A stretch of 64,000 bases of DNA from Candidatus Saccharimonadota bacterium (GCA_019352195.1 JACAFG010000005.1:92287-156286); one strand, 5' to 3'. Positions 2,603 to 50,620 are shown, numbered from the stretch's first letter. The notes: generated from the letters alone by a model not told the origin. Numbers and translations: made by a program.

Positions 2603-3175
2603 ATGACCGCAGATACAAGTTCCAGCGGTTCGACCGCAGGTTCATCTTCCCGCGAGCCGGAATACTTGCACCATGATGCAGTCGTCACCGTTGACGATTT
2701 CAACAATCTGGTGCGGACCTATCGCCGGCTCGGTGGTCTACTGAATCAACTTCAGGTCAAGGTCGATGGTCTTGCGCAGTCGGCTGCAACGCCTTCAGGC
2801 GAAACCGATGCGGACCGAATCGAGCGGAGTTTCGAAATCCTCAAAACGTCGCCCGAGTTTTTGGCGCGCGTTGGGGCTGCCGGAGACTATCTGGACGATT
2901 CCGCCTACTTCGATTCCGGAGTTTACATCACACGGAAGTTCTACTTGGCCGCGGACGCCTTGAAGGCGAACCCGCTTTTTGCGGGTATGTCGGCTCACGA
3001 GCGTGAAGAGATTGTGGCTGTTGCCCTGATCTCGAACGCCATCGAAGATGACACTGACAGGAACAAGAAGAAGCCCGCACGCTGTGAAGCGGTTGCGGCT
3101 GAAATCCTGGACACCATCGCTTTCAAGCTCCTTCCGGAGTACCTCAAAGCCGCCATCGCCCTCGGGCAAAAATAG
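2603..3175 (+). CDS. hypothetical protein (island-encoded, Ser/Thr-rich N-terminus)
   Basis: ORF with an AAGGAGG RBS 6 nt upstream. Lies in a GC-rich segment. No recognisable motif. Confidence 0.4.
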   Translation: MTADTSSSGSTAGSSSREPEYLHHDAVVTVDDFNNLVRTYRRLGGLLNQLQVKVDGLAQSAATPSGETDADRIERSFEILKTSPEFLARVGAAGDYLDDSAYFDSGVYITRKFYLAADALKANPLFAGMSAHEREEIVAVALISNAIEDDTDRNKKKPARCEAVAAEILDTIAFKLLPEYLKAAIALGQK

Positions 3176-3188
3176 ATAAGGAACGCTC

Positions 3189-4253: not shown

Positions 4254-4277
4254 AGCCCAAACTGTGGTGGGGCCCTC

Positions 4278-5369: not shown

Positions 5370-5569
5370 TCGGGTCGATCTACTCAGAAAAACCAACTTC
5401 GGTTGGTGCAGTACCTTTTTGCAGTACGTAGTACCGCATTTCCCGCAGTAACCAGCAATACACGCGTGAACGTGCATTACCTTCTTGTTACTACGAGCGC
5501 ACCTCGATTTGTCGCCCCTTGCGATAAATCACCCCGTTATACCCAGAAGTAAACGGTCTGTTACATGAG

Positions 5570-22807: not shown

Positions 22808-23108
22808 GAAATTGAAGATTATCCGGATGTGTTAGCTCATTATAGTCGTCGTCGCTGATTTGGCCAACTGAAGCCAAATACGCCAGATCGGCCACGAAGA
22901 TAGCGCGAATGTCATCATAACGGGGTGATTTCTTGTCCGCCAAAATACGCAAAGTTGCAGTTGAGTCCTTAATAAACTCTTCGAGCTCGTCCTCGTTCAT
23001 CATTTCCCCTTCGGTTTTGTCGGGGTTACTGACGCATCGCGCCGGCGGGTCGACATCGGCGGCCCGATAATCTTCGAGATGCCACGCAAGTTCTGATAAT
23101 GGATTCAT
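22794..23108 (-). CDS. hypothetical acidic protein
   Basis: ORF only; its end overlaps the glyQS start by 14 nt. Confidence 0.3.
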   Translation of the reverse strand: MNPLSELAWHLEDYRAADVDPPARCVSNPDKTEGEMMNEDELEEFIKDSTATLRILADKKSPRYDDIRAIFVADLAYLASVGQISDDDYNELTHPDNLQFHAEI

Positions 23109-23842
23109 AAAGTTGCTCCTAGGGTGCCCGAACGGACGCTGTGGCCGCCGTGGGCGTCATAAAAATCATCGCAGTCGGCCAAACTGCTGGCAGCCATTTC
23201 AGATGCCCCGCCGATACGGGCGATCGTAGCGTATGGATAGTTAAACAGCAAGCGCCACAGTTTTATGGCGGGTTGTGACATCGGTGAAGCGACGGCGCCG
23301 CGGTCATCATCGCAGGTGAGGCCGCCCCGCTCGGCCTCAAACCAGTAACGCGAGTCAGCGTCCGACCGGCCACAGACGAGGCATTGGTCGAGTGACGGCT
23401 GCAGACCCGAAATGGCGAGGAGGCGGAGTTTAAACCATAGCTCGACCAGTGGACCTGACTCCCCTGCTTCGACCGCCCCCAAGGCCATGCGCGTGTGCGC
23501 GTACAGCTCGGGCTGGGGCTCACCAGGCTGGGCAAAGCGGTCCACGAGCGAGGCGATGATAAACGCCAGTCCTAGGCGCTCGTAGTTGGCCGTAAGCTCA
23601 TGCGGATACCACACGAGCCGGGCGGATGTAACTACGTCGAGGTTACGGCCGGTCGCAAGCATCAGCGCTACTTCGCCAAATGGCTCCAGATGACCACCCG
23701 ATTTGCTTTTAACGCGGCGAATACCTTTGGCAACGGCGCTAATCTTGCCATGTTCGGGCGTAATAAAGCGAATAATACGGTCGGCTTCGCCAAAATTGGT
23801 GCGGCTTAGCACGATGCCGGTAGTTTGGTATGTAGCGCCCAC
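23105..23842 (-). CDS. recO: DNA repair protein RecO
   Basis: N-terminal OB fold (GIVLSRTNFGEADRIIRFIT ... GKISAVAKGIRR) and a C-terminal Cys-containing region. GTG start with a TAGGAGGG RBS. Confidence 0.8.
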   Translation of the reverse strand: MGATYQTTGIVLSRTNFGEADRIIRFITPEHGKISAVAKGIRRVKSKSGGHLEPFGEVALMLATGRNLDVVTSARLVWYPHELTANYERLGLAFIIASLVDRFAQPGEPQPELYAHTRMALGAVEAGESGPLVELWFKLRLLAISGLQPSLDQCLVCGRSDADSRYWFEAERGGLTCDDDRGAVASPMSQPAIKLWRLLFNYPYATIARIGGASEMAASSLADCDDFYDAHGGHSVRSGTLGATL

Positions 23843-23896
23843 GCACCCTCCTATCTCAACTTATTATAGCGAGCGGGCGTATAAACGCGAAGCGAC

Positions 23897-23924
23897 CCCG
23901 GTTTCTTGCAAGAAACCGGGGTCG
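23897..23924. terminator. perfect 28-bp palindrome ACCCCGGTTTCTTGCAAGAAACCGGGGT at the boundary between GC-rich island 2 and recO
   Basis: Seen directly. A minus-strand TATAAT -10 for recO lies immediately downstream. Confidence 0.5.
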
Positions 23925-23939
23925 ATCGGACGATGTGGA

Positions 23940-24368
23940 TCAGGCGGAGACGAGCTCCGGAGATGTGACGGGCTCGGTCGTGGCGGTGGTCGGGTCGATC
24001 AGCTGTGGGAAAGCGTTGTCGTCGAACCGAGTGATATAGCGCTTGATGCGCCACGTGGTGGCGACGCCGGGGCGCTCCTCGGTGAAGTCGGTGCCGCCCT
24101 CTTTGAGGGGCAAGACCGTGGTGCCCCAGGCGGCCGCGACGATGGCGGCGAACTCCTTGTCGACGATGATGTAACCGGGGTAGACGGTGTAGTCCCCGAG
24201 GCCGAGGTCGCGCAGGGCCCGGTGACCGGTGCAATCCTGCGGCTGGCATGGGGTGGCCACCGGCAGGCTGGTGAGCTCCGGCTGGCCGAAGGCGGTGCGC
24301 AGCGCGTTGAGGTCGCGGCGCATGCCACGAATGGCGAGAGATGCGGCGGATCTGGTCATGGACAACAT
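23940..24368 (-). CDS. hypothetical protein (GC-rich island 2)
   Basis: ORF in a high-GC segment. The plus-strand RG-rich 282-aa ORF is judged an artefact. No motif recognised. Confidence 0.3.
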   Translation of the reverse strand: MLSMTRSAASLAIRGMRRDLNALRTAFGQPELTSLPVATPCQPQDCTGHRALRDLGLGDYTVYPGYIIVDKEFAAIVAAAWGTTVLPLKEGGTDFTEERPGVATTWRIKRYITRFDDNAFPQLIDPTTATTEPVTSPELVSA

Positions 24369-24456
24369 CCTTCCAACTCGGGGTGGAAATGCGGGCTCGC
24401 AAGTATGAGCTTATGGTTGTTATACGACACTGGTGTCGAAATAACAACCATAACGG

Positions 24457-24882
24457 CTAGGCGGCAGAGGGCGCTCGGTTTTCGTCGAAACCGGGCAGCA
24501 GTCCGTCGTCGAAGTTTTCAACGAACAGACTCACGTCTCGGGGCAGCTTGAAGTGAACTTTGCGGCACTGGGGGCCGTCGGCGCACTTCAACTGCTTGCT
24601 GCCCCAGCTTCGTCGTACCGCGGCAGCGTTACTGGGGTCAAGCGCGATGTCGCTCCGGGTGATGTAGAACTCACCCAAGCCGTCACAGCGCAACGTGCGG
24701 TGCACGGGGCAAATGTCGGCGCCGCGGATCGCGCCTTTGGACATGGTGCGGCGGGGCTTGGCCCCGAGAGCGGCGCGCAGCAGATTGATCTGGGTGAGCG
24801 CTGCGCGGGCGACCGCGGCTTGGTTGATCTGGATCACGCTGGTAACGGGAAGATTGACGTCAGAGGAAGATTTCATCAGCAT
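24457..24882 (-). CDS. hypothetical protein (GC-rich island 2)
   Basis: ORF with an AAAGGG RBS. Several Cys residues. No motif recognised. Confidence 0.3.
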   Translation of the reverse strand: MLMKSSSDVNLPVTSVIQINQAAVARAALTQINLLRAALGAKPRRTMSKGAIRGADICPVHRTLRCDGLGEFYITRSDIALDPSNAAAVRRSWGSKQLKCADGPQCRKVHFKLPRDVSLFVENFDDGLLPGFDENRAPSAA

Positions 24883-25393
24883 GAGCTGACCCTTTCGAGA
24901 TCTGGTCGGGGGAATTCGAACTTGGATTGTTGATACCTGGGTTGCCCTGTTTGGTAAGCCAGGTTTCAGCGCGCACTGAGTTCGGCAAAGGGACTGGCAA
25001 CCAGTTCCGGAATGCCGTCCGCGCTGTCGAAGCGCTTGATGAAACGAATGACGGCAGGCGGGTTGCGGAGCTTGACGCGTAAGCCATGCGACGTCTCGAA
25101 GAACTTCGGCACACGCTTAATCCTGGGAGGACATCAACGAGCGTGTTGTGTACCGCGCAAATGTTTTAGCGCGCAGGAATGCCTGGTCGGGGGGTCTTCA
25201 GTGGACTACCTCCCAGCGCCTGACGCAGGCGGTTGCATGCTTCGAGCATGCCGGCGGTGAGTTCGGCATTAGTACGAGATTTGAACATGACGGGCCCCAA
25301 TTGTGTCGATGTACTGGTTTGGTGGAAAAACAAAACCTGAACTAGTTATACGGTATGTGGGCTAATGAGGCAAGATTTTCTAGTGGCTATGTC

Positions 25394-39553: not shown

Positions 39554-40630
39554 TTAGTGAATGTAGTTGAAATAGCTCTTGGAATAGGTACCGTAGCGGA
39601 AGTGACCGTAACCGTCATAGTTCATTTCACTCACAATGACGTTGTCGCCTTGAATGGCCTCTACCACCGCAACGTGTCCGTAGGCTCCGGCACTGGTTTG
39701 GGCAATAGCCCCTACCTCTGGCGTACTGTCGACTCGGAAACCGTCGGCGCGGGCATATCCGGCCCAAGTGTTGGCATTGCCCCACCCGGTAGGAACGGCG
39801 CGACCCATGGAGGCACGACGCCATCCGGCCCAGGAGACACACTCGCGGTTGAGGCCCCAAGCCCCACCATAGCCGTAGGCATCTTGCGGAGCACTACACC
39901 AGGCGCTTGGATAGCCGCCATTGCCGTGGCCGTTGTCGCAGGCACCGCCCGACCCGCTCGAGGCACCGGGGATGGAGCCGCCGAAGCTGCGTGAGTTGGC
40001 GGCTAGGATGGCAGCCTGCTGCGCTTTGAGCGAAGCAATTTGCGAGTTGCTCTGCTTTACTTGCGCATTAGCGGCGTTAACGTTTTGCGCAGCGGTGGCC
40101 AGGAGCTGGTTGGCCTCAGCTTGGTTTGCGGCTAGTTGTTGGTTTTGGGTGTTTTCGTTGTCCAAAATAGCCGTAACTTGAGTTTTTTGGTCGGCCAGCT
40201 TAGCTTGAGTCGCCAATATGTCGGCCATGGCTGACTGAATTTTATTCTTAATGCTGTCCTGATACTGCTGTTGGTTGAAGTAGTCGCTTAAATTATTGCT
40301 GGAAGCAATCATTTCGATAGGTGTAATCGATGAATCAAGATACATGCTCTTGAGGTTATCGCCCAACGCGACTTTTTCGCTACTCAGTTTGGCCTCGTTA
40401 GAAGCAATATTTGCGGTCACCTGATTATACTGGGCTTGATTGAGGTTGATCTGAGCCTGCAGTGCGTTCATTTGGGCTTGCAGCTGCTGCACGCGAGCCT
40501 GGTAATCGTTGGCCTGCGCCGAGTACTGGTTGGCGGTGGCCTGTTGTTGACTGGCCTGAACTTTGAGCGCGGCGATTTGCTGGTCGAACTGATCAGCTAA
40601 GGCTGCACTCGAAAACAAAGAACAGACCAC
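39554..40630 (-). CDS. coiled-coil + CHAP-domain peptidoglycan hydrolase (PcsB/CwlO-like). The N-terminus is unresolved: the signal peptide extends upstream of the first canonical start.
   Basis: About 200 aa Q/A-rich coiled coil. C-terminal CHAP domain (CVSWAGWRR ... GHVAVVE ... MNYDGYGHFRY). The in-frame upstream sequence KFTNLSQTVIRAIAAVVVCSLFSSAALA looks like the signal peptide but contains no ATG/GTG/TTG before the TAG. Confidence 0.7.
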   Translation of the reverse strand: MVCSLFSSAALADQFDQQIAALKVQASQQQATANQYSAQANDYQARVQQLQAQMNALQAQINLNQAQYNQVTANIASNEAKLSSEKVALGDNLKSMYLDSSITPIEMIASSNNLSDYFNQQQYQDSIKNKIQSAMADILATQAKLADQKTQVTAILDNENTQNQQLAANQAEANQLLATAAQNVNAANAQVKQSNSQIASLKAQQAAILAANSRSFGGSIPGASSGSGGACDNGHGNGGYPSAWCSAPQDAYGYGGAWGLNRECVSWAGWRRASMGRAVPTGWGNANTWAGYARADGFRVDSTPEVGAIAQTSAGAYGHVAVVEAIQGDNVIVSEMNYDGYGHFRYGTYSKSYFNYIH

Positions 40631-40893
40631 AACCGCAGCAATGGCGCGGATGACGGTCTGTGATAGATTGGTGAACTTAGTACGGATAGTCTTGCCCCTC
40701 CAAGCACTTTCAATGATATAGCATATGTTCTATCTGTCAAACTGGTTGTGCTATTGACCTTATTCACAAGAAATGGGCCTATTTAATAGCTGAGTTTTAG
40801 ATGAATACATTACGAGAGGTTTTATCTGGTGGCAACTCCGAACACTGTATTTTGGCATGGAATGAGCTGAGGATGTTCGTTTGTTCGGCTGGA

Positions 40894-41808
40894 CTAGAGT
40901 TTGAGATATCGGCTCATAGCTAAAATTGATGAGACGGCGCCAATAATAATTCCGAGCAGCAGTTCACCGCCTAAGATCACAAACGGATAGGATTGGAAGA
41001 AGCTGATGGTAGAACCAAAGTCGATATAACTAGCCACCTTGGGCGCACTACTCAAGAGAACTAGATACGAGAAGGTTACGGCAACGATGGCCGCGATAAT
41101 TCCGTAAAGGGCCGCCTCAAAAATAAACGGTCCGCGAATAAACCATTTGGTGGCACCGACAAGCTTCATGATTTCGATTTCATCGCGCCGGGTAAAAATG
41201 GCCATTCTGATGGTGTTGAAAATGATCAGTGTCGAAATGACGACAAAGACAATACTGGCTGCTAAGCCCGCAGTTTTGAAGAAGTTAGCAAAGTGAACAA
41301 TACGGTCGATGGTTTCTTTGCGGCCGCCCGTGTAGCTTGGTGGGGCGGTGGGATCGAGCAGACTTTGGTTGGCCTGCTGACTCACGACTGCTTCGATAGC
41401 GTCGAGATGTTTGGGATCGATGGCTTTTACCTCAATTGAAGACGGCAAAACATTGCCAGCTGTATCGAGCGCCTGGATGAGCGATGGCTTATCTTTGTTT
41501 TGGTTCTTATAGTTAGCAACTGCCTGATCAGGGCTGACATACATGAGGCTCGCGACGTTACCGCTGCTTTTGAGGGCGGCTTCGAAAGCAGCCACCTGAT
41601 CGGGCGTCGTGTTATTGTTGAGGAAAATCGAGACGTCAATTTTATCGGTCACCCCTTTGATGGTAGCGGTAAGGGCGAGGCTTGAGATAAACGACACAAT
41701 GACGATGATAAGGGTCACCGTCATAACGGCGGTAGCAGCAGTTGAGAGCCAGGCGTTACGCAGAAAGTTGCGGATGCCGCCGTGAAGTATTCGCCAAAAT
41801 TGCAGCAT
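40894..41808 (-). CDS. ftsX: cell division ABC transporter permease FtsX
   Basis: Four-TM FtsX topology with a large extracytoplasmic loop. Overlaps the ftsE stop. Confidence 0.85.
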   Translation of the reverse strand: MLQFWRILHGGIRNFLRNAWLSTAATAVMTVTLIIVIVSFISSLALTATIKGVTDKIDVSIFLNNNTTPDQVAAFEAALKSSGNVASLMYVSPDQAVANYKNQNKDKPSLIQALDTAGNVLPSSIEVKAIDPKHLDAIEAVVSQQANQSLLDPTAPPSYTGGRKETIDRIVHFANFFKTAGLAASIVFVVISTLIIFNTIRMAIFTRRDEIEIMKLVGATKWFIRGPFIFEAALYGIIAAIVAVTFSYLVLLSSAPKVASYIDFGSTISFFQSYPFVILGGELLLGIIIGAVSSILAMSRYLKL

Positions 41809-42551
41809 TAGTTTTGTGCCTCAACCCCAGTGGCAATGCCCTTGGTAGCGCCCTTGAGGGTCGTTGGGTTTTCTAAGGTGTAGCGTCCCTGTTCATCATC
41901 GCGGATGATGCGGCCGCGGTTGATCGTGATAACACGTCGTTTGAGGGCGTTTACAATTTCTTTGTTGTGCGTAGTGAGCAGCACGGTGGTACCAAAACGG
42001 TTAATTTTGAGCAAAAGCTCGATAATTTGCCAGGCATTGCCGGGGTCGAGGTTACCGGTTGGTTCGTCGGCGATAAGAATTTTGGGCTGGCGAATGAGCG
42101 CCCGGGCAATGGCGACACGCTGACGCTCACCACCTGACAGTTCGTGCGGGTACATGTTTTGCTTGGCCGATAGGCCAACGAGGGTGAGCATCTTGGGTAC
42201 AGCGCGCTTAATTTCGCGCTGGCGGGCCCCCGAAACTTCGAGCGCAAAGGCGACATTTTCACCTACGCGGCGGTTGGGTAGGAGTTTAAAATCTTGAAAC
42301 ACCACCCCAATGCGACGGCGCACGAGCGGCACGTCTTTCGCGGTAATCGTGTCGTAATCAAGTCCACCGACAATGATTTTGCCTGAACTATGCGTTTCTT
42401 CGCGCGTCAGAAGCTTGATGAGCGTACTCTTGCCGGCGCCACTGGAACCCACAATAGTCACAAATTCTTTAGGCTCAATATGAAGATTGAGACCCGATAA
42501 CGCCGTTTGGCCGTTCGGATATACTTTGGTAACTCGATCGAATAGAATCAT
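41808..42551 (-). CDS. ftsE: cell division ABC transporter ATP-binding protein FtsE
   Basis: Walker A GSSGAGKST. ABC signature LSGGERQRVAIARAL. Walker B ILIADEPT. About 247 aa. Confidence 0.9.
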   Translation of the reverse strand: MILFDRVTKVYPNGQTALSGLNLHIEPKEFVTIVGSSGAGKSTLIKLLTREETHSSGKIIVGGLDYDTITAKDVPLVRRRIGVVFQDFKLLPNRRVGENVAFALEVSGARQREIKRAVPKMLTLVGLSAKQNMYPHELSGGERQRVAIARALIRQPKILIADEPTGNLDPGNAWQIIELLLKINRFGTTVLLTTHNKEIVNALKRRVITINRGRIIRDDEQGRYTLENPTTLKGATKGIATGVEAQN

Positions 42552-42606
42552 TACCGTCTCATCTTATCATAGAGTGAACTTGGTTGTGGTTAGGATAGGC
42601 GGTACA

Positions 42607-42645
42607 TGATTGAGGACGATCCTGGTGACAAGATCGTCCTCAATT
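42607..42645. promoter_or_regulatory. perfect 13-bp inverted repeat ATTGAGGACGATC-(10 nt)-GATCGTCCTCAAT at the junction between the ftsE upstream region and GC-rich island 5
   Basis: Seen directly. Lies about 60 bp upstream of the ftsE start codon. Confidence 0.4.
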
Positions 42646-43040
42646 GTCGTGAGAGACGGGCGATGATTTTGCGGCTTATTTCATTAGCCGCGGGGTGGCC
42701 TCAACTGGCTGGGACGGGCCCGGTTGGGCGGCGGACCGATGCTGGCCATGGCTTCGAGGGCACGGTTACCTCGATGGTTGCGTTGGGCGCCGGTGTGTCG
42801 AGTAATCGATTTCCGGCCGGCTCGGCCAAATAAGGTAGGCCGTCGGAGTTCTGGCCGGCGATGCCGGCGAAGGTCAGATGACGCAAGAAGCTGCCGACTT
42901 CGACGGCGAACTGGCTGGCGGTCGTGTCAGTCCCCTCGTCCCCAATTGCTACCAGAAACTTCGTCCGGCATTTGCGGCAGCGCCGATCGACTGATGGCAC
43001 ACGTATGCCGCACGCCCCACACGTGTAGGGACCGCCAACA

Positions 43041-43156
43041 CGAAATTAAGCGCGCTGTGCCCAAGATGCTCACCCTCGTTGGCCTATCGGCCAAGCAAAA
43101 CATGTACCCGCACGAACTGTCAGGTGGTGAGCGTCAGCGTGTCGCCATTGCCCGGG
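43041..43156 (+). repeat. 116-bp inverted duplicate (115/116 identical) of an internal ftsE segment (42101-42216, encoding EIKRAVPKMLTLVGLSAKQNMYPHELSGGERQRVAIAR)
   Basis: Direct sequence comparison. The single difference is a synonymous T/C (GTA vs GTG, Val). Confidence 0.85.
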
Positions 43157-43200
43157 GCAATTATTATCCCAAACATGTCATACTAGTTAAAGGTAGCCCA

Positions 43201-43569
43201 ATGAGCGAATACCCAAACCATATACGAGCGCAGTTTGATGAGGCGGTAACGTCGAGTCCCGACGCGCTGCTGTGTATTCTCAACCCGGCGGGCCAGCTGC
43301 TCGCGGTCTCGCCTTCAGTCGAGCCGATTCATGGCTATCTCCCGTCTGAAGTGGTTGGGACTAACTTTTCCATCTACTTTGATGCCGATGACGTAAATCA
43401 TCTAAGGTTAGTTATCCAAGATTGTATTCTAACCGGGCAATCCATCGAAGCAAGCCGCCGCGTTAAGCACAAAACTGGCGCCTACCGGCGAATGCGTGGG
43501 GCTGCCACCAAACTTGAGGATGATGCTACAGGTGATGCCTATATTCTCTCAATTGCTCGGCCGGTTTAG
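43201..43569 (+). CDS. small stand-alone PAS-domain protein
   Basis: About 122 aa. A PAS-like fold is inferred from ... LCILNPAGQLLAVSPSVEPIHGYLPSEVVGTNFSIYFDADD ... The ORF track fuses it to upstream junk (42724..). Confidence 0.45.
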   Translation: MSEYPNHIRAQFDEAVTSSPDALLCILNPAGQLLAVSPSVEPIHGYLPSEVVGTNFSIYFDADDVNHLRLVIQDCILTGQSIEASRRVKHKTGAYRRMRGAATKLEDDATGDAYILSIARPV

Positions 43570-43682
43570 CTGGCGTTCGCAGCAAAAAACTACGCGAACT
43601 ACCCGGCCAAGTGGTACAAATAAGCATAATTGTCAGCAAAAAGTAACATTATTAGCCATATTGCAGTTATCAGGTACAAATT

Positions 43683-43713
43683 CATTGACACAAATGTCAA
43701 TGTGTCCTAACAT
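43683..43713 (+). promoter_or_regulatory. promoter with a palindromic operator: CATTGACA-caaa-TGTCAATG overlapping a TTGACA -35; TAACAT -10 lies 17 nt downstream
   Basis: Lies in a locally AT-rich spacer inside the GC-rich island, 75 nt upstream of the TasA-like gene. Confidence 0.45.
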
Positions 43714-43787
43714 ATCTTGGTGTCGTCTATCCAGGCGATCGTTCCACCACGTGTTCGAGGAATCGAGCACGCGACAAAAGGAGTCCC

Positions 43788-44462
43788 ATGTCCAGTTCCA
43801 AGCCCAGCGTGAACCCCGATGCCAAGCCCAAGCGGAAGCGTCGCGGTCTCGTAGCCCTCTTCTGTTCCGTCTTGCTCTGCGGCGGCCTCTTCGTGTTCCT
43901 CGGTTAGGCCAGCACCGGTGCCTACTTCAGCGACACCAAGGCCGGCACCGTCTCCGGTACCGTCGGATCCATCAAGATCACGGGTACCGGCGGCTCGGGC
44001 GCCGACAATCTCTCGGTCAGCTTCGATCGGCTGCTGCCGGGTGAGAACCAGTCGGTGACGACGTCATGGACGAACACCGGCCTCAACAAAGAAGACGTCT
44101 TCGTGGTGTTCTCGAACCCTGACGCGCTGCACGCGCTGAACAACCTCGGGACCTACGGTGAGGTCCACATCGTGGGCAACAACGGACCGGTCTTCGACAG
44201 CGCCAACCTCAACGACAATTCGGCGTCATGTGTCACGTTCTCGCCGTCGGGATGTTGGCCGGTCGCCAAGAGCTACAAGATCGGCACCAACATCACCCCC
44301 GGAGGCACCGGATCCTGGACGTTCACCTTCGGGTACGCCTCCAAGCTGTCGACTCAGTCCGCCGCCGGCGGTGGCGATTGGAACTCCTACCCCTTGGGTG
44401 GGCCGACCAACTCCGGTCTTCCGTACCAGCTGGTCGCGGTCCAGCCGGGCCAGACCCCGTAG
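43788..44462 (+). pseudogene. TasA/camelysin-family secreted protein with a SipW-cognate-class signal peptide, interrupted by a single in-frame TAG at 43905-43907
   Basis: AAAGGAG RBS. MSSSKPSVNPDAKPKRKRRGLVALFCSVLLCGGLFVFLG-TAG-ASTGAYFSDTKAGTVSG ... (the AxFSD(T)E motif). Same frame throughout. Confidence 0.6.
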
Positions 44463-44520
44463 TACCACTTAGGTGGCGCGGGCAACGTCTGTCCGCGCCA
44501 CCTAGGTCCTACCACAAGGA

Positions 44521-45042
44521 GTGGACATAGTGCCAAAATGGCTCAGTATCACCGTCAGTGCCCTCGTCTTTGCTGCCATGGTGGTAGTAAGCCTGTCGCT
44601 TCTGATGTCACACCACCTCTATGTGGTGCGCACGGGCTCAATGGGAAACACCTACCCGCCCAAGACGCTCGTCGTCGTCAAGGTTGGTGAGTACCATGTG
44701 GGACAAGTTATCTCGTTCCGCGAGCATGGCGATATCACCACCCACCGCCTCCTCGGCTTCAACGCCGACGGTACGCTCATCACCAAAGGCGACGCCAACG
44801 ACACTCCCGATCCCTGGACTCTCCACCGCTCCGACATTATCGGTGGCGTCACTGGCTCGGTTCGCGGCCTCGGCTACTGGTTCATCTATGCGAAGAACCC
44901 CTACGGCCTCGGCTCCATGGTTTGCTTAGTCCTCGCGATCTGGCTGTCCATCAAACTTTACCGCGAGATGACTCCTGAGACCGACGCAGAGTCCGACCCG
45001 CCCGACAATTCGCTCGAGGATCTCATCCTGAGCTCCTCCTGA
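44521..45042 (+). CDS. sipW: SipW-type (archaeal/ER-type, S26B) signal peptidase I
   Basis: N-terminal TM helix. VVRTGSMGNTYPPKTLVVV, then VGQVISFREHGDITTHRL and ITKGDANDTPDPW, compared from memory with B. subtilis SipW (SGSSMEP ... VTHRVIEV ... ITKGDNN ... D.W). C-terminal TM helix. GTG start with an AAGGAG RBS. Confidence 0.75.
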   Translation: MDIVPKWLSITVSALVFAAMVVVSLSLLMSHHLYVVRTGSMGNTYPPKTLVVVKVGEYHVGQVISFREHGDITTHRLLGFNADGTLITKGDANDTPDPWTLHRSDIIGGVTGSVRGLGYWFIYAKNPYGLGSMVCLVLAIWLSIKLYREMTPETDAESDPPDNSLEDLILSSS

Positions 45043-45105
45043 CCACCAGCCCTCGTCCGCAACTAGTTTTGCGCGGACGGGGGCTTCGTCTATTTTGCAG
45101 TTAGG

Positions 45106-45795
45106 CTACCACAACCAAAGTAAAATGTCTGCACCCCCAGAAGGAGTGCAGGCATTTGATTTTCGGACCTGACAAGACCAGTCGGTCATGCAGATATGCG
45201 GCACGCCAGCGATAATCGCACGCTTGGGGTTACCAGCCGCCGTCCACTCGTCGTGGGTGATGAGGATGGAAACGCTGCCCGCCTGGGCATTACAATCTGG
45301 AACTTCCCAGACGGGGGCGCTTACCTTGGCAATGACAAACCCATCGAGAAAGCGTCGCACCGGCGCGTAGCCGGAAGCGGCCCAGTCAACTCGTTGGATG
45401 TAGTGGTACTGATCGACGCCCGGCGAGCTGAAGAACACCTCGGCCGTCGATGTCATGTACCGCAGCACGTCGCTGTCGGGAATCCATCTCACTGTGTGAA
45501 TCGTCGGGTTACCCCAAGCCACCCGTTGGGCGTGGGACATATATGTCGCATGGCCACCGACCACCCGGTAGGCCCGTGCGTTCCACGAGTAGCGGACGTA
45601 GGATCCGGACGGCGTTGCAGCTTTGACAGTCTGAGCAAAGACAACTGACACAGTGGCAGGGCTGGCAGCCACGGGTGTGGCCGCCGAAGCCGTGCCAACC
45701 GTAGCAAAAACCACGATGCCCAGTGCGAGGATGAGACTGCTCGCCAACGTGACGAGGCGGTTCCTCCAGGGTATGGGAGTACGAACAGAAGACAT
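45106..45795 (-). CDS. secreted hypothetical protein (signal peptide; Cys/Trp-rich)
   Basis: N-terminal signal peptide MSSVRTPIPWRNRLVTLASSLILALGIVVFATVGTASA. No motif recognised. Confidence 0.4.
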   Translation of the reverse strand: MSSVRTPIPWRNRLVTLASSLILALGIVVFATVGTASAATPVAASPATVSVVFAQTVKAATPSGSYVRYSWNARAYRVVGGHATYMSHAQRVAWGNPTIHTVRWIPDSDVLRYMTSTAEVFFSSPGVDQYHYIQRVDWAASGYAPVRRFLDGFVIAKVSAPVWEVPDCNAQAGSVSILITHDEWTAAGNPKRAIIAGVPHICMTDWSCQVRKSNACTPSGGADILLWLW

Positions 45796-45834
45796 GATTG
45801 CCTTTCTTGAGGCAGTCGGGAACCTCCATTCCGT

Positions 45835-46840
45835 TTTGAATCAGGACACTCTCCCGCAAACTGACACCATGAAGAAAGCACCCAAACTGTCGGATGCGGA
45901 GCGGTCAGAAATTGGCACACTTTTAAGTAAAAAAGTATTTACTTCGGGACATTGCCCGGGTATTGGGGCGCAGCCCCAATACCGTGTCCGACGAGATTAA
46001 GCGCAATAGTGTGTGGGATCGGTATGAGGTCGAGTCGGCGAAACGCAAAAGCTACTATGTGCGTAAATATGCCAAGTATCAGGGCAAGAAGATTCAGGAA
46101 AATATGGATCTGCGGTGGTACATCATCGTGCGGCTTCAGGCGCATTGGAACCCAGATGAAATTGCTGGAGCCATAAGCAGCTGTTTTACGCCTCCAAAAC
46201 TGCCATTTACGACTGGCTACGTTCCGAATGGGGCCAGCGTTACTGCCAGTTTCTGGACTCACAGCGACATCGCCCGCGCAAGCGCCAGAAGAAGGCGGTT
46301 CGTCCCATGATTACAGATAGGGTGAGCATTGTAGAACGGCCTTTGGGCGCCACAAATCGCACCCGGTATGGCCACTGGGAGGGTGACACGGTTGTGTCCG
46401 GAAAACGCACCGGTAGCACGGCGGCGTTGGTGGTGACCGTGGAGCGCAAAACACGGCTCGTGGCCGCGAGAACAATACCCGACTTGAGGCCGGCGAGCTT
46501 TAATAGCGCCATCCAGGACGTCCAGACTGGCGTAACAAAGATGCGCAGTCTGAGTTTAGACAACGGCATTGAGAACCGTTGGCACGGCCAGCTGAGCGTC
46601 CCAGCTTACTTGTGTGCTCCGTACTCCAGTTGGCAAAAAGGCAGTGTAGAAAATGCTAACAAAATGATACGGCGGTACCTGCCCAAGGGCCTGGATCTAG
46701 TCACCGTGACACCGACTCGCTTACAAGATATTATTTAGATAATTAGCAACAAACCCAGGAGGATCCTGGGGTATAAATCGGCCACACAAGTGGCCACAGA
46801 GAAAGGAATATTACGAGAGCAAGTGTCCTGATTGGGGGCT
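45835..46840 (+). mobile_element. IS30-family insertion sequence remnant (~1.0 kb) with imperfect terminal inverted repeats sharing AATCAGGACACT
   Basis: IR core at 45839-45850 and its reverse complement at 46822-46833. A transposase ORF lies between them. Confidence 0.65.
45869..46738 (+). pseudogene. IS30-family DDE transposase, split across three frames
   Basis: HTH segment LGRSPNTVSDEIKRN. WNPDEIAG. TAIYDWL ... HWEGDTV ... ERKTR ... DNGIEN ... SWQKGSVENANKMIRRYLPKG. Frame change at the A6 run near 45925-45935 and a second change near 46165-46175. Confidence 0.7.
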
Positions 46841-47174
46841 GAATGCAGCTTTTTTCGGGTGATATTGCAGCAACTACGTCGGCGTAGTCACTACGACTTA
46901 CAACCATGTCTTCTCCTCGGGCTAGGGACGGATTTGACGACACTTTGTCGTCAATGGGAACTGGGACGAGCGGGACTCTGTCTGGTGTCGGGGCACGTTG
47001 GGTGGACCCATTCTGCCGGGATGATGGGCGGCAGGCCGAGCACGTCGCGCAGGGGGCGGTCGATTCCTGTCCAGTCGGACAGTTTGGGACGGGACATGAA
47101 GACTCCAAGAGGTCGAAGGACGGCGATCAACGTGGAACTAGCGATATTATGAAATAACATATTAATAATTACAA

Positions 47175-48272
47175 CTAATCGTCGCTACCGGAGCCTATTT
47201 GGCCGTTGAGATAAGCTTCAATAAACAAATCGAGATTGCCGTCTAAGACGCCGGCGGCATCATTCGTTTCGGCCCCGGTGCGGACATCTTTGACCTTAGT
47301 GTAGGGATGGAGCACATAATTGCGGATTTGTTGGCCCCACTCGGCGGCTTTATCGGCACCGCGCAATTGGCCAAGTTCGGCGGCCTGTTCCGCTTCGAGG
47401 CGCGCCGCTAAACGGGCTTTCAGCACGGCCATGGCTTTGTCTTTGTTTTGTAGCTGTGAGCGCTCGTTTTGAATCGCCACCACCGTATTGGTCGGTATGT
47501 GGGTGATGCGGACAGCTGAATCAGTCGTGTTAACGCTTTGGCCGCCTTTGCCGCTCGAGCGATACACATCGATCCGCAAGTCTTTGGGGTCGAGTTCGAT
47601 ATCGGCGGTGCTGCGGTCGAGTTGAGGTAGTACCTCAACCAGCGCAAATGAAGTTTGGCGTAAATCGGCCGAATTAAATGGGCTTTGGCGAACTAGACGA
47701 TGAACGCCGGCTTCGCCTTTGAGTTTGCCAAAGGCAAACGGCCCGGAGATTTCAATAGTGGCGCTCTTAATTCCCGCTTCCTCACCAGGCGAGGTTGATA
47801 GAATTTCGGCGCTAAAATTCTGCGAGGTCGCCCATCGCACGTACATGCGTTGGAGCATTTCGGTCCAGTCTTGCGCGTCGGTACCGCCGGTACCGGCATG
47901 GAGCTCGATAATGGCGCCGGTCCGATCATGCGGGCCTGATAGCTTGAGCTCAAATTCGCGTGCTTCATAGTCGGTTTTGAGGCGCGAGTAGGTAGCTTCG
48001 GCGGTTTCGGCGTAGCCCGGGATATCGGTGACGCCAAATAATTCATCACTGACTTGGCTTTCGAGCGAGCGCCAACTTTCGACATGTTTCGTGAGTTCGG
48101 CGAGGCGCTGCGAAGTTTTAGCCGCGGCTTGAGGATCATTCCAAAAATCGGGCGCTTGGGTGGCCGCGCTGAGCTTGGCGATCTCGGTAGCGTCGGCAGG
48201 TATACCAAGTTTAGCGATGGCGGATTGAATTCGCTCCAACAGATCAGTGTAGCGGTGAATAAGGTCTTGCAT
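47175..48272 (-). CDS. prfB: peptide chain release factor 2 (uninterrupted ORF; no programmed +1 frameshift site)
   Basis: SPF tripeptide motif and GGQ (SSGKGGQSVNTTDSAVRITH). 365 aa in one frame. Confidence 0.88.
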   Translation of the reverse strand: MQDLIHRYTDLLERIQSAIAKLGIPADATEIAKLSAATQAPDFWNDPQAAAKTSQRLAELTKHVESWRSLESQVSDELFGVTDIPGYAETAEATYSRLKTDYEAREFELKLSGPHDRTGAIIELHAGTGGTDAQDWTEMLQRMYVRWATSQNFSAEILSTSPGEEAGIKSATIEISGPFAFGKLKGEAGVHRLVRQSPFNSADLRQTSFALVEVLPQLDRSTADIELDPKDLRIDVYRSSGKGGQSVNTTDSAVRITHIPTNTVVAIQNERSQLQNKDKAMAVLKARLAARLEAEQAAELGQLRGADKAAEWGQQIRNYVLHPYTKVKDVRTGAETNDAAGVLDGNLDLFIEAYLNGQIGSGSDD

Positions 48273-48289
48273 ACCTCTATTATACGGCT

Positions 48290-50620
48290 TTAGTTGCCAG
48301 GTGGGGTATTGCGACCGCTGGGGTTGGGCGTTGATGACGGGCTAGCCGCGTTAGCCGCGTCTTTGAGCAGTTGCTTAATACTATTGCCGAGGCTTGTCGC
48401 GGGCGACGGGGACGGAGACGGCGACGGGCTGGCCGTGGGAGCGGATGAGTTGCAGTGGTTGGTAGGTACTTTGTCCGTCGGGAAGACTTCGGCCGTGACT
48501 GCGGTGTCCCATGGATTGGCGAGTCCCCCACCGCTCGTGCAAACATTCGCTACGGTTACGCCAGCTGGGACGCTAAAAGTTTGGGGCGCGCCCGAACCAA
48601 CCACGGATTCCATGTAGTCGTGCCAAATGGGGGCGGCACCGGTGATACCGTCGACGTTTTGCATCGGAGTGTTATTGCTATTGCCGGCCCAAACGGCTGT
48701 GACAATGCCGGGTGTATAGCCAACGGTCCAGTTGTCGCGGAAGTCATTGGTAGTTCCGGTTTTGGCCGCCGCCGGAATTTCCACGCCGGTCGTTACATTG
48801 GTTAGGCGCAGTGGTGAGTTAAAGGGAAACTCTGGCTGGCGCGCGTGATTATCGCTCAAAATGTTCGTCATCATATAGGCATAGCGGGCATCAATGGCGT
48901 TGGGCGTGGCAGCAACCGCAGGTTTGGTTATGTTATTGCCGTAACGGTCGGCCACTTTCAGGGCGTAACGAGACGGGACTTTGGTCCCCCCGTTCGCAAT
49001 CGTGCCGTAAGCGGTAGCCATGTCGAGCGGTGTGACCTCACCTGCTCCAAGTACCAGGCTTAAACCATACTGGTTGGGACTCCCCAGGGTGGTAATGCCC
49101 ATCGCGGAGGCGGTTTTGAGGGTGCCAGGAATGCCGGCAAACTGCAGGGTTTTGACAGCCGGAATATTGAGCGAGTTATCCAACGCGGTTCGAACCGTAA
49201 CGGTGCCGTGGAAGCGCAAATCGTAGTTTTCGGGAATGTAGGTAGTGCCATCACCATTAGGCAGCACCATCGGCGCATCTAAAATAGTGGTGGCGCCGTT
49301 CCAGCCTTTGGCAAAGGCGGTGAGATAGGCAAAGGGTTTGAAACTAGAGCCTGGCTGTCGTAGTCCGTAGGCGGCAACGTTATATGCGCCCCAGCCAGGT
49401 GCGTTGTAATTGGCGCTGCCGACCATGGCCAAAATATCGCCGCTACCCGGCTCCATTGAAACTAAAGCGCCGTTGGTCAGATTGTGGGAGCCGAGTTTGC
49501 TGATCTGGGCGCTCACAATGCCTTCGGCTGTTTGCTCGTCTTTGAGGTCTAAGGTAGTGGTGACGGTGAGTCCGCCTTGTTTGACGGCTGTGTCACCGTA
49601 TTGTTTGGTGAGTTGATCAAGAACGTAAAATACAAACCAAGGCGCTTTGATGTCGTAGTTTTGGGCGTAAAACACAATTGGCTCTGCCTTGGCGGAAGCG
49701 GCCTGCTCGCGGGTAATTTGGCCGAGCGTCAGCATGCGGTCCAAAACAAAGTCGCGGCGTTGGGTGGCGGCGGTAAGGTCGACATTGGGATCGAGGCGGC
49801 TCGGCCCCAGTGGCAAGCCGGCTAGAAGCGCACTTTGTGACAAGCTCAGTTTGCTGGCGGGAGTATGAAAATAGGTTTGGGCAGCGGCTTCAATACCGTT
49901 GGCACCTTCGCCGTAGTAGGTTTCGTTAAGATACATCTCGAGGATTTGGTTTTTGCTATATCGCTGCTCTAGATTGGTCGCTAAAACGATTTCTTTAAAT
50001 TTGCGCGTAAACGATTTGTCACTTGATAGCAACGAGTTTTTGATGAGCTGCTGCGTGAGCGTTGAGCCGCCCTGAACTTCGCCGTGCTGGGTAACGTCAA
50101 CGAGGGCAGCGCGCGCCATACCGCGCCACGAGAAACCTGGCTCGCTGTAAAAATTGGGATCTTCGGCCGCTAGCGTGGCATTACGTAAGTTCATTGGTAG
50201 TGTACCCAGCGGATCAATGATAATGTGCTGTGCGCCGTAAGCCTCGTACAACACCTGTCCGTTGCGATCCAAAATGGTCGTACCAACCTGTTTTTTGGCC
50301 ATGAGCGCAGCCGGGCTCGACAGGTCGGTGGCGTAGAAGGCGTAGGTTGAGGCGGCGACGGTGAGACCGGCAATGGTGGCAGTAAGAATACCGGCCGCAA
50401 TAATTGCTAGATAAATCGCTCGGGCACGGTGATTCCAAAAGAAACGGTACAGACGACGCAGGAAGCGCTGCAAATCGGCTCCGGCCGCCGCCCCAAAGTC
50501 GCTGGCGGCTTTCCAGTCGTAGGCGGAGTCAATGCGTGGGGTCGGCAAACCAAGCGACAGCGTTTCGTAGAACGGCTGCTGCTGACGTTTTCGTAGTTTT
50601 TGTCGCTTGGATTTGGCCAT
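48290..50620 (-). CDS. class A penicillin-binding protein (glycosyltransferase GT51 + transpeptidase)
   Basis: N-terminal TM helix. GT51 motifs (AAEDPNFYSEPGFSW, GGSTLTQQL). Transpeptidase domain. Ser/Pro-rich C-terminal tail. Confidence 0.85.
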   Translation of the reverse strand: MAKSKRQKLRKRQQQPFYETLSLGLPTPRIDSAYDWKAASDFGAAAGADLQRFLRRLYRFFWNHRARAIYLAIIAAGILTATIAGLTVAASTYAFYATDLSSPAALMAKKQVGTTILDRNGQVLYEAYGAQHIIIDPLGTLPMNLRNATLAAEDPNFYSEPGFSWRGMARAALVDVTQHGEVQGGSTLTQQLIKNSLLSSDKSFTRKFKEIVLATNLEQRYSKNQILEMYLNETYYGEGANGIEAAAQTYFHTPASKLSLSQSALLAGLPLGPSRLDPNVDLTAATQRRDFVLDRMLTLGQITREQAASAKAEPIVFYAQNYDIKAPWFVFYVLDQLTKQYGDTAVKQGGLTVTTTLDLKDEQTAEGIVSAQISKLGSHNLTNGALVSMEPGSGDILAMVGSANYNAPGWGAYNVAAYGLRQPGSSFKPFAYLTAFAKGWNGATTILDAPMVLPNGDGTTYIPENYDLRFHGTVTVRTALDNSLNIPAVKTLQFAGIPGTLKTASAMGITTLGSPNQYGLSLVLGAGEVTPLDMATAYGTIANGGTKVPSRYALKVADRYGNNITKPAVAATPNAIDARYAYMMTNILSDNHARQPEFPFNSPLRLTNVTTGVEIPAAAKTGTTNDFRDNWTVGYTPGIVTAVWAGNSNNTPMQNVDGITGAAPIWHDYMESVVGSGAPQTFSVPAGVTVANVCTSGGGLANPWDTAVTAEVFPTDKVPTNHCNSSAPTASPSPSPSPSPATSLGNSIKQLLKDAANAASPSSTPNPSGRNTPPGN

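What the first reader, a model, noticed from the sequence alone, without database searches (positions are those of the whole stretch)
42101..43156. 116-bp inverted duplicate of an internal ftsE segment at the island edge
Nt 43041-43156 are the reverse complement of ftsE nt 42101-42216 (115/116 identical). The single change is synonymous in the ftsE frame. The two copies bracket about 825 bp that include the ftsE 5' end, its promoter and the first GC-rich DNA. This looks like a scar of the recombination event that brought in the island. It is also a substrate for inversion of the ftsE promoter and 5' region, which would disrupt ftsE. Alternatively it is a chimeric assembly join.
Basis: seen in the sequence. 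Interest (0 to 1): 0.65.

Follow-up and report, generated by a model that had tools for sequence, protein, structure and literature searches.

The report
Orphan inverted ftsE fragment upstream of ftsE
A 129-base piece of the cell-division gene ftsE really is copied in reverse orientation 0.8 kb upstream of that gene, inside a decaying block of inserted DNA in a Saccharibacteria genome, and it looks like an ordinary rearrangement scar, not an assembly error or a working switch.

Summary
The arms are 42101-42229 (ftsE codons 108-150) and 43028-43156: 129 nt with 4 mismatches, including a 97-nt exact stretch. It is the only long-range repeat in the 64-kb window.

The window comes from a Saccharibacteria metagenome-assembled genome (MAG), GCA_017884045.1. 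Independent k=31 contigs assembled from raw reads (Logan, run SRR11551193) break exactly where this repeat predicts. One of them runs straight across the left junction of the copy. So the copy is in the reads, and the mis-assembly reading is not supported.

In relatives, prfB sits next to ftsE (median gap 47 bp in 111 loci). Here 4,627 bp of lineage-specific DNA lies between them. That DNA is decaying: a remnant resembling an FG-GAP repeat, a TasA-like gene with a nonsense codon, and a split IS30 transposase.

The copy is not at the edge of this insertion. It sits at an internal junction between a 63% GC remnant and a 53% GC PAS gene. It has sharp ends and runs exactly from GGGCCC to CCCGGG, with GGG at both junctions.

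Best reading: templated filler DNA from a replication or repair template switch, probably non-functional. It is a latent substrate for inversion that would break ftsE. It also misled the gene caller into calling a 167-aa PAS protein. Interest is low.

The parts
42101..42229 (-). Arm 1: the source segment inside ftsE. It covers sense nt 323-451, codons 108-150, including the ABC signature motif LSGGERQR. It starts at GGGCCC and ends at CCCGGG.
43028..43156 (+). Arm 2: the orphan inverted copy. Its + strand reads in the ftsE sense. It has 4 mismatches, at 43031, 43038, 43040 and 43059. Its flanks show no homology to ftsE.
43060..43156 (.). The 97-nt stretch that exactly equals the reverse complement of 42101-42197. 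This is the part shared in the raw-read de Bruijn graph and the likely crossover substrate.
   Evidence: assertion; contig break points
41808..42551 (-). ftsE, intact, 247 aa. It is 89% identical at protein level to the closest relative and colinear with it through arm 1.
40894..41808 (-). ftsX, which overlaps the ftsE stop codon by 1 nt. A PcsB-like coiled-coil/CHAP hydrolase gene (39554-40630) follows.
42230..43027 (.). The 798-bp segment between the arms. It holds the ftsE 5' 322 nt, a 46% GC spacer, a hairpin with 16-nt arms (42609-42644), and a 63% GC segment Z (42650-43027).
42704..43039 (-). Open frame in Z that weakly resembles one FG-GAP repeat unit. It has no start codon before its first CxxC, and upstream the frame is closed by a TAA inside arm 2. 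I read it as a gene remnant.
43201..43569 (+). Stand-alone PAS-domain gene, 122 aa, with its own AAAGG ribosome-binding site. The public record's 167-aa call (43066-43569) runs wrongly into arm 2.
43788..44462 (+). TasA/camelysin-like gene for a SipW substrate. It carries an in-frame TAG (43905-43907) just after the signal peptide, so it is a pseudogene.
44530..45042 (+). SipW/archaeal-type signal peptidase I.
45821..46851 (+). IS30-family element. It has imperfect 30-nt terminal inverted repeats, and its transposase is split into two frames (45963-46310 and 46307-46738).
42552..47174 (.). Lineage-specific mosaic insertion that separates prfB (47175-48272, minus strand) from ftsE. The gap is 4,627 bp, against a median of 47 bp in relatives.

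Best explanation
The second copy is a real, recent and probably non-functional templated insertion ('filler DNA').

Proposed origin (inferred). During a replication or repair accident inside the DNA inserted between prfB and ftsE, a free 3' end ending in GGG annealed by microhomology to the opposite strand of ftsE, 0.8 kb away. It copied 126-129 nt, from GGGCCC to CCCGGG. It then switched back, again at GGG. This left an inverted ftsE fragment between a remnant of an FG-GAP-like gene and a PAS gene.

Consequences that follow from the sequence:
1. A 97-nt exact inverted repeat now flanks the ftsE 5' end. It could support rare homologous inversion that would split ftsE.
2. Any minus-strand transcript that starts upstream of the copy and reads into ftsE would carry 129 nt complementary to its own coding region.
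3. Gene callers extend the PAS ORF into the fragment.

What is shown: the repeat, its exact limits, its presence in raw reads, the inserted and decaying context, and the sharp ends. What is inferred: the template-switch origin and the lack of function.
For: The copy is real.
- Logan contigs of SRR11551193 match the window 100%. One ends at 42130, one spans 42168-43089, and one starts at 43127.
- These are the k-1 overhangs expected around the exact 97-mer and around the copy-specific base at 42198/43059.
- The 922-bp contig crosses the 43027/43028 junction without a branch.

The copy is local and recent.
- It is 115/116 to 125/129 identical to this genome's ftsE, but only 74% identical to the closest relative's.

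It looks like a single clean insertion.
- There is no residual ftsE homology in 150 nt on either flank. Local scores are no better than shuffles: 375 of 500 and 70 of 500 shuffles reached the observed score.
- The copied block starts exactly at the GGGCCC hexamer (sense nt 323) and ends exactly at CCCGGG (nt 451). ftsE has only 14 six-nt palindromes in 744 nt.
- Both junctions carry GGG.

It sits at a junction of unrelated pieces.
- The left flank is 63% GC and holds an FG-GAP-like remnant with no start codon.
- The right flank is 36% GC, followed by a 53% GC PAS gene. The PAS homologues are 123-124 aa and start at the Met of 43201.

The surrounding block is inserted and decaying.
- The prfB-ftsE gap is 4,627 bp, against a median of 47 bp and a maximum of 3,629 bp in 111 relatives.
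- None of the island proteins is found in the relatives' loci.
- There is a nonsense codon in the TasA-like gene and a split IS30 transposase.

The model itself comes from the literature. Short templated segments from nearby DNA, in direct or inverted orientation, joined at 2-5 bp (2-15 bp in E. coli) microhomology, are the signature of FoSTeS/MMBIR (PMC2621351).
Against: - No ancestral sequence or sibling strain was found. The best relative is only 76% identical in DNA. So I cannot show that the two flanks were contiguous before the event, and the microhomology cannot be verified.
- GGG is only 3 nt, and the palindrome coincidence was noticed after the fact.
- Joining the flanks in silico does not restore a start codon for the remnant ORF (my reading of the sequence).
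- Three of the 4 mismatches cluster in the first 13 nt. This needs an extra assumption, such as error-prone synthesis just after the switch or later mutation.
- Lack of function is inferred from context, not tested.
Confidence: 0.55

Rival explanations
1. The fragment is the remnant of a larger inverted duplication. A longer inverted copy of the ftsE region once lay here, and later deletions or insertions trimmed it on both sides to 129 nt.
For: The region is visibly being reshuffled and eroded. The left 13 nt of the copy are more diverged than the rest. That could be an older tract next to a gene-converted core.
Against: This needs at least three events within the time taken to accumulate 1-4 substitutions. 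No residual homology is seen beyond either end. The right end drops from 97 of 97 identical to no similarity in one step, exactly at a palindromic hexamer.
Confidence: 0.15
2. The fragment arrived with incoming DNA. It was picked up next to ftsE in a near-identical strain, for example by imprecise excision or by one-ended transposition of the unit carrying the IS30 element. It then came back with that DNA by recombination.
For: An IS30-family element lies in the same insertion. The copy-specific G at 43059 is absent from this genome's ftsE and from three relatives. The PAS segment next to the copy has host-like GC content.
Against: The fragment is 2.7 kb from the IS and does not abut any recognisable element end. 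No integrase, and no direct repeat of the att type, is present. The donor would need a disrupted ftsE. No second locus or strain carrying the fragment was found.
Confidence: 0.12
3. The fragment is a functional element. Either it is one arm of an invertible switch that toggles FtsEX between an intact form and a split form (FtsE(1-150)-PAS fusion), or it is a cis-antisense leader that pairs with ftsE codons 108-150 in the mRNA and invites double-strand-specific RNases.
For: The inverted isomer built in silico gives an open 287-aa in-frame FtsE(1-150)-linker-PAS ORF. A promoter-like site on the minus strand (43190 to 43163; TTAACT, 16-nt spacer, TG-GATAAT) sits just outside the copy and points through it toward ftsE. 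The RNA of 43170 to 42090 folds with the full long-range stem.
Against: No recombinase lies within about 10 kb on either side (precomputed Pfam; island ORFs). The arms are far longer than those of known invertons. The flipped state inactivates a conserved division ATPase, because it lacks Walker B. By my estimate, being in frame with no stop over 45 nt has a chance probability of about 0.16. Promoter-like hits are not significantly enriched (3 found against 1.2 +/- 1.1 expected). The feature is unique to one MAG, so there is no conservation.
Confidence: 0.05
4. The fragment is an artefact. The copy comes from chimeric library molecules or from mis-assembly, and does not exist in the organism's chromosome.
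For: The source is a short-read scaffolded MAG with an N10 gap nearby. The copy is about one read length long. Its mismatches cluster at one end, as read-end errors would. Only one sample contains the organism.
Against: A second assembler working from the raw reads reproduces both junctions and both copy-specific variants. It shows no competing branch at 43027/43028, and its contigs break only at the positions the repeat itself dictates. Both flanks of the copy are unique sequence, so no simple fold-back or repeat-collapse path yields this structure.
Confidence: 0.07

Closest known systems
Templated insertions at complex rearrangement junctions (FoSTeS / MMBIR; Hastings et al. 2009, PMC2621351)
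   Same: A short segment is copied from DNA less than 1 kb away. It is inserted in inverted orientation between unrelated sequences, with sharp ends and a few bases of possible microhomology (GGG) at each junction.
   Different: The pre-event sequence is unknown, so the microhomology and the single-event origin are inferred. The model was built mainly on E. coli amplification and on eukaryotic data, not on Saccharibacteria.
Invertible promoter switches (invertons such as fimS, hin, Bacteroides capsule promoters)
   Same: Inverted repeats bracket a segment immediately upstream of, and overlapping, a gene's 5' end.
   Different: The arms are 129 nt here, against roughly 10-40 nt from my own knowledge. 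One arm lies inside the coding sequence of an essential-type gene. There is no invertase nearby. The flipped state destroys the gene rather than repositioning a promoter. Both orientations have not been observed.
Homologous (RecA-type) inversions between dispersed inverted repeats, such as IS copies or rrn operons
   Same: A 97-nt exact inverted repeat is long enough for homologous exchange. The predicted product is a simple inversion of 42198-43059.
   Different: Here the repeat is a gene fragment, and the inversion would be deleterious. No isomer has been observed. At k=31 the two isomers share all k-mers, so the available contigs cannot reveal one.
Diversity-generating retroelement template/variable repeat pairs
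   Same: Two copies of about 130 nt, one in a coding region. Three of the 4 mismatches are adenines in the non-coding copy.
   Different: There is no reverse transcriptase. Only 3 of 29 adenines differ, and one mismatch is at a G. The 'variable' copy would be the conserved ABC signature region of FtsE. The orientation is inverted.
Duplicated gene ends at integration sites of genomic islands (attL/attR)
   Same: A fragment of the neighbouring host gene is repeated in association with inserted DNA.
   Different: Integration sites give direct repeats at the two edges of the element, and usually involve the gene's 3' end. Here the repeat is inverted, internal to the gene, and internal to the insertion, and there is no integrase.

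Membership tests
Templated insertion by template switching (FoSTeS/MMBIR-type) | The inserted segment is a copy of nearby sequence, in direct or inverted orientation. | tested here: met
   The source lies 798 nt away, in inverted orientation, at 97-99% identity.
Templated insertion by template switching (FoSTeS/MMBIR-type) | The segment sits at a breakpoint between sequences that are otherwise unrelated, and it has sharp ends. | tested here: met
   Neither flank has homology to ftsE. GC is 63% on the left and 36% then 53% on the right. The left-flank ORF lacks a start codon.
Templated insertion by template switching (FoSTeS/MMBIR-type) | Microhomology of 2-15 bp at each switch point relative to the pre-event sequence. 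| tested here: inconclusive
   GGG is present at both junctions, and the block is bounded by GGGCCC and CCCGGG. The ancestral junction is not available.
Invertible DNA switch (inverton) | Inverted repeats flank the invertible segment. | tested here: met
   129-nt arms with 798 nt between them.
Invertible DNA switch (inverton) | A site-specific recombinase (tyrosine or serine invertase) is encoded nearby. | tested here: not met
   No Phage_integrase or Resolvase hit among the island ORFs, nor among the called genes within about 10 kb on either side. The only related gene is a split IS30 DDE transposase.
Invertible DNA switch (inverton) | Both orientations are present in the population. | not testable with these tools
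   The two isomers share every 31-mer because the exact stretch is 97 nt, so the Logan contigs cannot distinguish them.
Diversity-generating retroelement (TR/VR) | A reverse transcriptase lies next to the template repeat. | tested here: not met
   No RT domain is found in any island ORF or neighbouring gene.
Diversity-generating retroelement (TR/VR) | Mismatches are confined to adenines of the template repeat, and many of them differ. | tested here: not met
   Three mismatches are at A and one at G. Only 3 of 29 adenines differ.
Integrative-element att duplication | Direct repeats of the target at both ends of the element, plus an integrase. | tested here: not met
   The repeat is inverted and internal to the insertion. 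No direct repeat longer than 19 nt is found in 40500-48500. There is no integrase.
Terminal inverted repeats of a transposable element | Both arms are ends of an inserted element that is absent from empty sites. | tested here: not met
   Arm 1 is colinear ftsE coding sequence that is conserved in L001 and other relatives.
Assembly chimera | The junctions are absent from, or contradicted by, an independent treatment of the raw reads. | tested here: not met
   The Logan contigs reproduce both junctions and break only at repeat-dictated positions.

The most novel reading that the evidence does not exclude
The inverted ftsE fragment could be a working control element for cell division in an epibiotic Saccharibacterium.

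One version is a recombinase-independent homologous flip-flop. It would switch between intact ftsEX and a split state that expresses a 287-aa FtsE(1-150)-PAS fusion.

The other version is a self-antisense leader. It would form a 129-bp duplex with the ftsE coding region and so tune the FtsEX-PcsB machinery.

The evidence does not exclude either version, because orientation ratios and transcription could not be measured here.
Probability: 0.04. Interest if true: 0.7.

Novelty: new member of a known kind. Interest (0 to 1): 0.22.

Why it matters
The main value is practical.
- A suspicious inverted repeat in a MAG can be checked against independent raw-read contigs. Here that check clears it of being a mis-assembly.
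- The public record's 167-aa PAS protein should be corrected. It is an over-extension into an ftsE fragment.
- The conserved prfB-ftsEX operon of Saccharibacteria turns out to be a recurrent landing site for unrelated DNA.

There is also a modest biological point. This is a clean natural example of a short inverted templated insertion in a reduced, uncultivated bacterium. It leaves an essential-type division gene next to a 97-nt inversion substrate.

If the minority reading (switch or antisense leader) were true, it would be an unusual way of regulating FtsEX. Nothing found here favours it.

Tried and rejected
- **Hidden longer homology around the copy.** I compared 150-nt flanks by local alignment against shuffles and by in-register identity. 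There was no signal.
- **Closer relatives or the same species elsewhere.** The genome contigs and metagenome-contig scans with FtsE gave at best 89% and 75% protein identity. No empty site or sibling allele is available.
- **Island proteins in 160 related loci.** The only hit is the ftsE-derived stretch itself.
- **Island DNA against plasmids and phages.** Only the generic ABC signature region matched.
- **Homologues of the ORF left of the copy.** The word-indexed search found none. The full HMMER search found only weak FG-GAP-repeat similarity. I had first read the ORF as a zinc ribbon, from its two CxxC motifs. I dropped that for a gene remnant.
- **Staggered-break inversion model.** Rejected. 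It needs an ancestor in which ftsE was split.
- **Fold-back priming.** Rejected. The 798-nt spacer is not duplicated.
- **Campbell-type or att integration.** Rejected. The repeats are inverted, not direct.
- **DGR.** Rejected. There is no RT, and the mismatch pattern does not fit.
- **Misplacement of short-insert read pairs.** I worked this through. It would give a direct copy, not an inverted one.
- **Rfam and tRNA scans of the window.** Nothing found.
- **Other short filler copies in 40500-48500.** None beyond chance-level matches of 17-20 nt.
- **Literature look-ups** of the accession and the run number found no paper.

Full report
**1. The observation**

The repeat finder on 41000-44500 returns a single inverted pair: 42101-42229 and 43028-43156, 129 nt, 97% complementary, with 798 nt between the arms. 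It also shows 13 further nt with 10 matches at one end.

The four differences, written ftsE to copy, are C>A at 43031, G>A at 43038, G>A at 43040 and A>G at 43059. The core difference is GTA>GTG (Val), which is synonymous. Three relatives carry GTA, so the change arose in the copy.

A 97-nt stretch is exact: 42101-42197 equals the reverse complement of 43060-43156. Self-BLAST of the whole window gives E = 4e-56, and there is no other long-range repeat in 64 kb.

Arm 1 is inside ftsE (41808-42551, minus strand; ABC_tran 1.5e-35). It covers sense nt 323-451, codons 108-150, including the LSGGERQR signature motif.

**2. Where the window comes from, and whether the copy is in the reads**

The FtsE protein is found exactly on contig JABBYD010000014.1 of GCA_017884045.1, a 220.8-kb scaffold of a Saccharibacteria MAG. 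Apart from one 203-position gap (section 8), the window matches that record exactly over the stretch compared.

The same collection holds Logan assemblies of public runs. From my own knowledge these are de Bruijn contigs built at k=31. Four Logan contigs of run SRR11551193 carry neighbouring proteins. The three that border the repeat were aligned to the window, and all match it at 100%:

| Contig | Length | Window coordinates |
|---|---|---|
| L166 | 18.4 kb | ends at 42130 |
| L168 | 922 bp | 42168-43089 |
| L170 | 2.7 kb | starts at 43127 |

These break points are what a 97-nt exact inverted repeat predicts at k=31:
- 42130 = 42100 + 30
- 43127 = 43157 - 30
- 42168 = 42198 - 30
- 43089 = 43059 + 30

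Positions 42198 and 43059 are the copy-specific bases.

L168 also runs through the left junction of the copy (43027/43028) and carries both variants, one at each of its ends. So both copies and both junctions of copy 2 are present in the raw reads under a second assembler. No competing branch appears at the junction.

The graph cannot tell the orientation of the internal segment. Inversion isomers share all 31-mers.

**3. Context**

FtsE relatives identify the lineage as Saccharibacteria. The closest is L001, at 89% protein identity and about 76% DNA identity. No closer genome or metagenome contig was found.

In 111 related loci prfB lies upstream of ftsE on the same strand:
- The median gap is 47 bp.
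- 63 loci have gaps of 100 bp or less.
- 19 loci have gaps over 1 kb.
- The maximum gap is 3,629 bp.

In the window prfB is at 47175-48272 and the gap is 4,627 bp, the largest seen. Other lineages hold unrelated cargo in this gap: MgtE, a racemase, a hydrolase and a CAAX protease. None of the window's island proteins occurs in any related locus. So 42552-47174 is lineage-specific inserted DNA in a recurrently used spot.

The insertion is mosaic and decaying. In order, it contains:
- A 46% GC spacer with a hairpin whose arms are 16 nt (42609-42644).
- A 63% GC segment Z (42650-43027). Its minus-strand frame has no start codon before its first CxxC, and upstream it is closed by a TAA inside the ftsE fragment. 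It resembles only a single FG-GAP repeat unit. The word-indexed search found no homologue.
- The ftsE fragment.
- 44 nt at 36% GC.
- An intact 122-aa PAS gene (43201-43569).
- A TasA-like SipW-substrate gene with an in-frame TAG at 43905-43907.
- A SipW-type signal peptidase.
- An unknown 229-aa ORF.
- An IS30-family element with a split transposase.

The two PAS homologues found are 123-124 aa and start at the Met of 43201. The record's 167-aa PAS call, which begins at the Met of the FtsE-derived KMLTLVG, is therefore an over-extension.

The copy is not at the edge of the insertion. It lies 477 bp inside it, at an internal junction between compositionally different pieces.

**4. Anatomy of the copy**

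The flanks of the copy show no residual similarity to the flanks of the source. Local alignment scores are within the shuffle distribution, and in-register identity is at background level.

In ftsE sense coordinates the copied block starts exactly at GGGCCC (323-328) and ends exactly at CCCGGG (446-451). ftsE holds only 14 six-nt palindromes in 744 nt. Both junctions therefore read GGG...GTA GGG ACC... on the left and ...GCCC GGG GCAATT... on the right.

Three of the four mismatches lie in the first 13 nt.

**5. Most likely explanation**

A single templated insertion by template switching fits best. A 3' end ending in GGG anneals to the opposite strand of ftsE, 0.8 kb away. It copies about 126 nt and returns at another GGG.

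This is the FoSTeS/MMBIR pattern: short nearby segments, in direct or inverted orientation, joined at 2-5 bp microhomology (2-15 bp in E. coli) (PMC2621351). The copy is nearly identical to this lineage's own ftsE but only 74% identical to L001's. That shows it was made locally and recently.

The repeat, its limits, its presence in the reads and its context are shown. The template-switch origin is inferred, because no pre-event allele is available. I give it about 0.55.

**6. Consequences**

I built the isomer expected from a crossover within the 97-nt stretch. In it, ftsE is split in two. One product is an open 287-aa in-frame fusion of FtsE(1-150), a 16-aa linker and the PAS domain. The other joins an Arg-rich non-gene frame to FtsE(108-247). 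FtsE(1-150) lacks Walker B.

The next gene after ftsX is a PcsB-like CHAP hydrolase. From general knowledge of FtsEX-PcsB systems, the flipped state should therefore be deleterious. That makes the repeat a hazard, not a switch.

A minus-strand transcript crossing the copy and ftsE would fold into the full long-range stem. The consensus scan finds no promoter-like site between the arms on the minus strand. It does find one just outside the copy (43190 to 43163). Overall the hits are not significantly enriched (3 found against 1.2 +/- 1.1 expected).

**7. Rivals**

- **Trimmed remnant of a larger inverted duplication (0.15).** It needs several events in a short time, and it leaves no flanking homology.
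- **Carry-over with mobile or foreign DNA from a sibling strain (0.12).** An IS30 element is present, but it is 2.7 kb away. There is no element end, no att repeat and no integrase.
- **Functional switch or antisense leader (0.05).** No recombinase lies within about 10 kb. There is no conservation. The flipped state is deleterious. Being in frame with the PAS gene has a chance probability of about 0.16.
- **Artefact (0.07).** The Logan contigs contradict it.
- **DGR, att duplication and transposon terminal repeats.** I tested their defining features and they were not met.

As a baseline, 1.73 Mb of related loci contain only three inverted repeats of 60 nt or more, and none involves ftsE.

**8. 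Verdict**

- It is not an assembly chimera.
- It is not at the island edge.

It is best filed as an ordinary rearrangement scar, a new example of a known kind. It brings an annotation consequence and a latent inversion hazard. Interest is low (about 0.2). The only exciting reading, regulated inversion or self-antisense control of ftsEX, is not excluded but has no positive support (about 0.04).

One side finding: the window lacks 203 positions of the public record at 38693/38694. That stretch is 193 nt plus an N10 gap in the record, and 200 nt in the raw-read contig. It makes the S41 peptidase look truncated in the window, although it is intact in the reads.

Noticed in passing
window 38693/38694 (L081 11859-12061; L166 3438-3637): The window lacks a stretch that is present in the public record (193 nt plus an N10 scaffold gap) and in the raw-read Logan contig (200 nt). 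Because of this, the S41/Ctp peptidase ORF reads as 273 aa and looks truncated in the window. It is 391-392 aa, with PDZ and Peptidase_S41 domains, in the other two sources. This is a data-preparation or scaffold-gap effect, not a pseudogene.
   Followed up: partly
window 43788-44462 (+), stop at 43905-43907: This is a TasA/camelysin-like secreted protein gene with a SipW-type signal peptide (...ASTGAYFSDT). It carries an in-frame TAG right after the signal peptide. A SipW-type signal peptidase gene follows at 44530-45042. The block is 61% GC, against 54% for the window, which suggests foreign origin.
   Followed up: partly
window 45821-46851: This is an IS30-family element with imperfect 30-nt terminal inverted repeats. 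Its transposase is split into two frames (45963-46310 and 46307-46738). Two Logan contigs meet at its left end (one ends at 45848, the next starts at about 45820). That hints at a branch in the read graph there, from other IS copies or a strain variant.
   Followed up: partly
window 43066-43569 (+): The public record annotates a 167-aa PAS protein whose first 45 residues come from the ftsE fragment and the linker. Homologues are 123-124 aa and start at the Met of 43201, which has its own AAAGG ribosome-binding site. The deposited protein (P0001) is an over-extended call.
   Followed up: yes
prfB-ftsE intergenic region in loci L001-L162: prfB-ftsE-ftsX is a conserved cluster in Saccharibacteria, with a median gap of 47 bp. 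In 19 of 111 loci more than 1 kb of unrelated cargo is inserted there: MgtE in L084, and a racemase, a hydrolase and a CAAX protease in L090. This is a recurrent insertion spot.
   Followed up: partly
window 42609-42644: A near-perfect hairpin (16-nt arms, 4-nt loop, no T tract) lies between the end of the FG-GAP-like remnant and the ftsE start. It may be a U-tract-less terminator that came with the GC-rich segment, or an operator.
   Followed up: no
window 3001-5500 and 23001-25000; repeats at 4983-5207: There are two further GC-rich blocks (60-67% GC, against 54% for the window). The first contains short tandem-like direct repeats (about 85% identity, 96 nt). These may be other foreign or repetitive-protein regions.
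   Followed up: no
L150 9877-12609; L134 285-3682: These are the only other inverted repeats of 60 nt or more in 1.73 Mb of related loci: 97 nt at 100% and 106 nt at 95% in L150, and 213 nt at 92% in L134. None involves ftsE, and I did not examine what they are.
   Followed up: no
window 39554-40630 (-): The gene after ftsX encodes a coiled-coil plus CHAP-domain protein with weak similarity to the PcsB and ScrM peptidoglycan hydrolases. This suggests an FtsEX-PcsB-type division hydrolase module in this Saccharibacterium.
   Followed up: no
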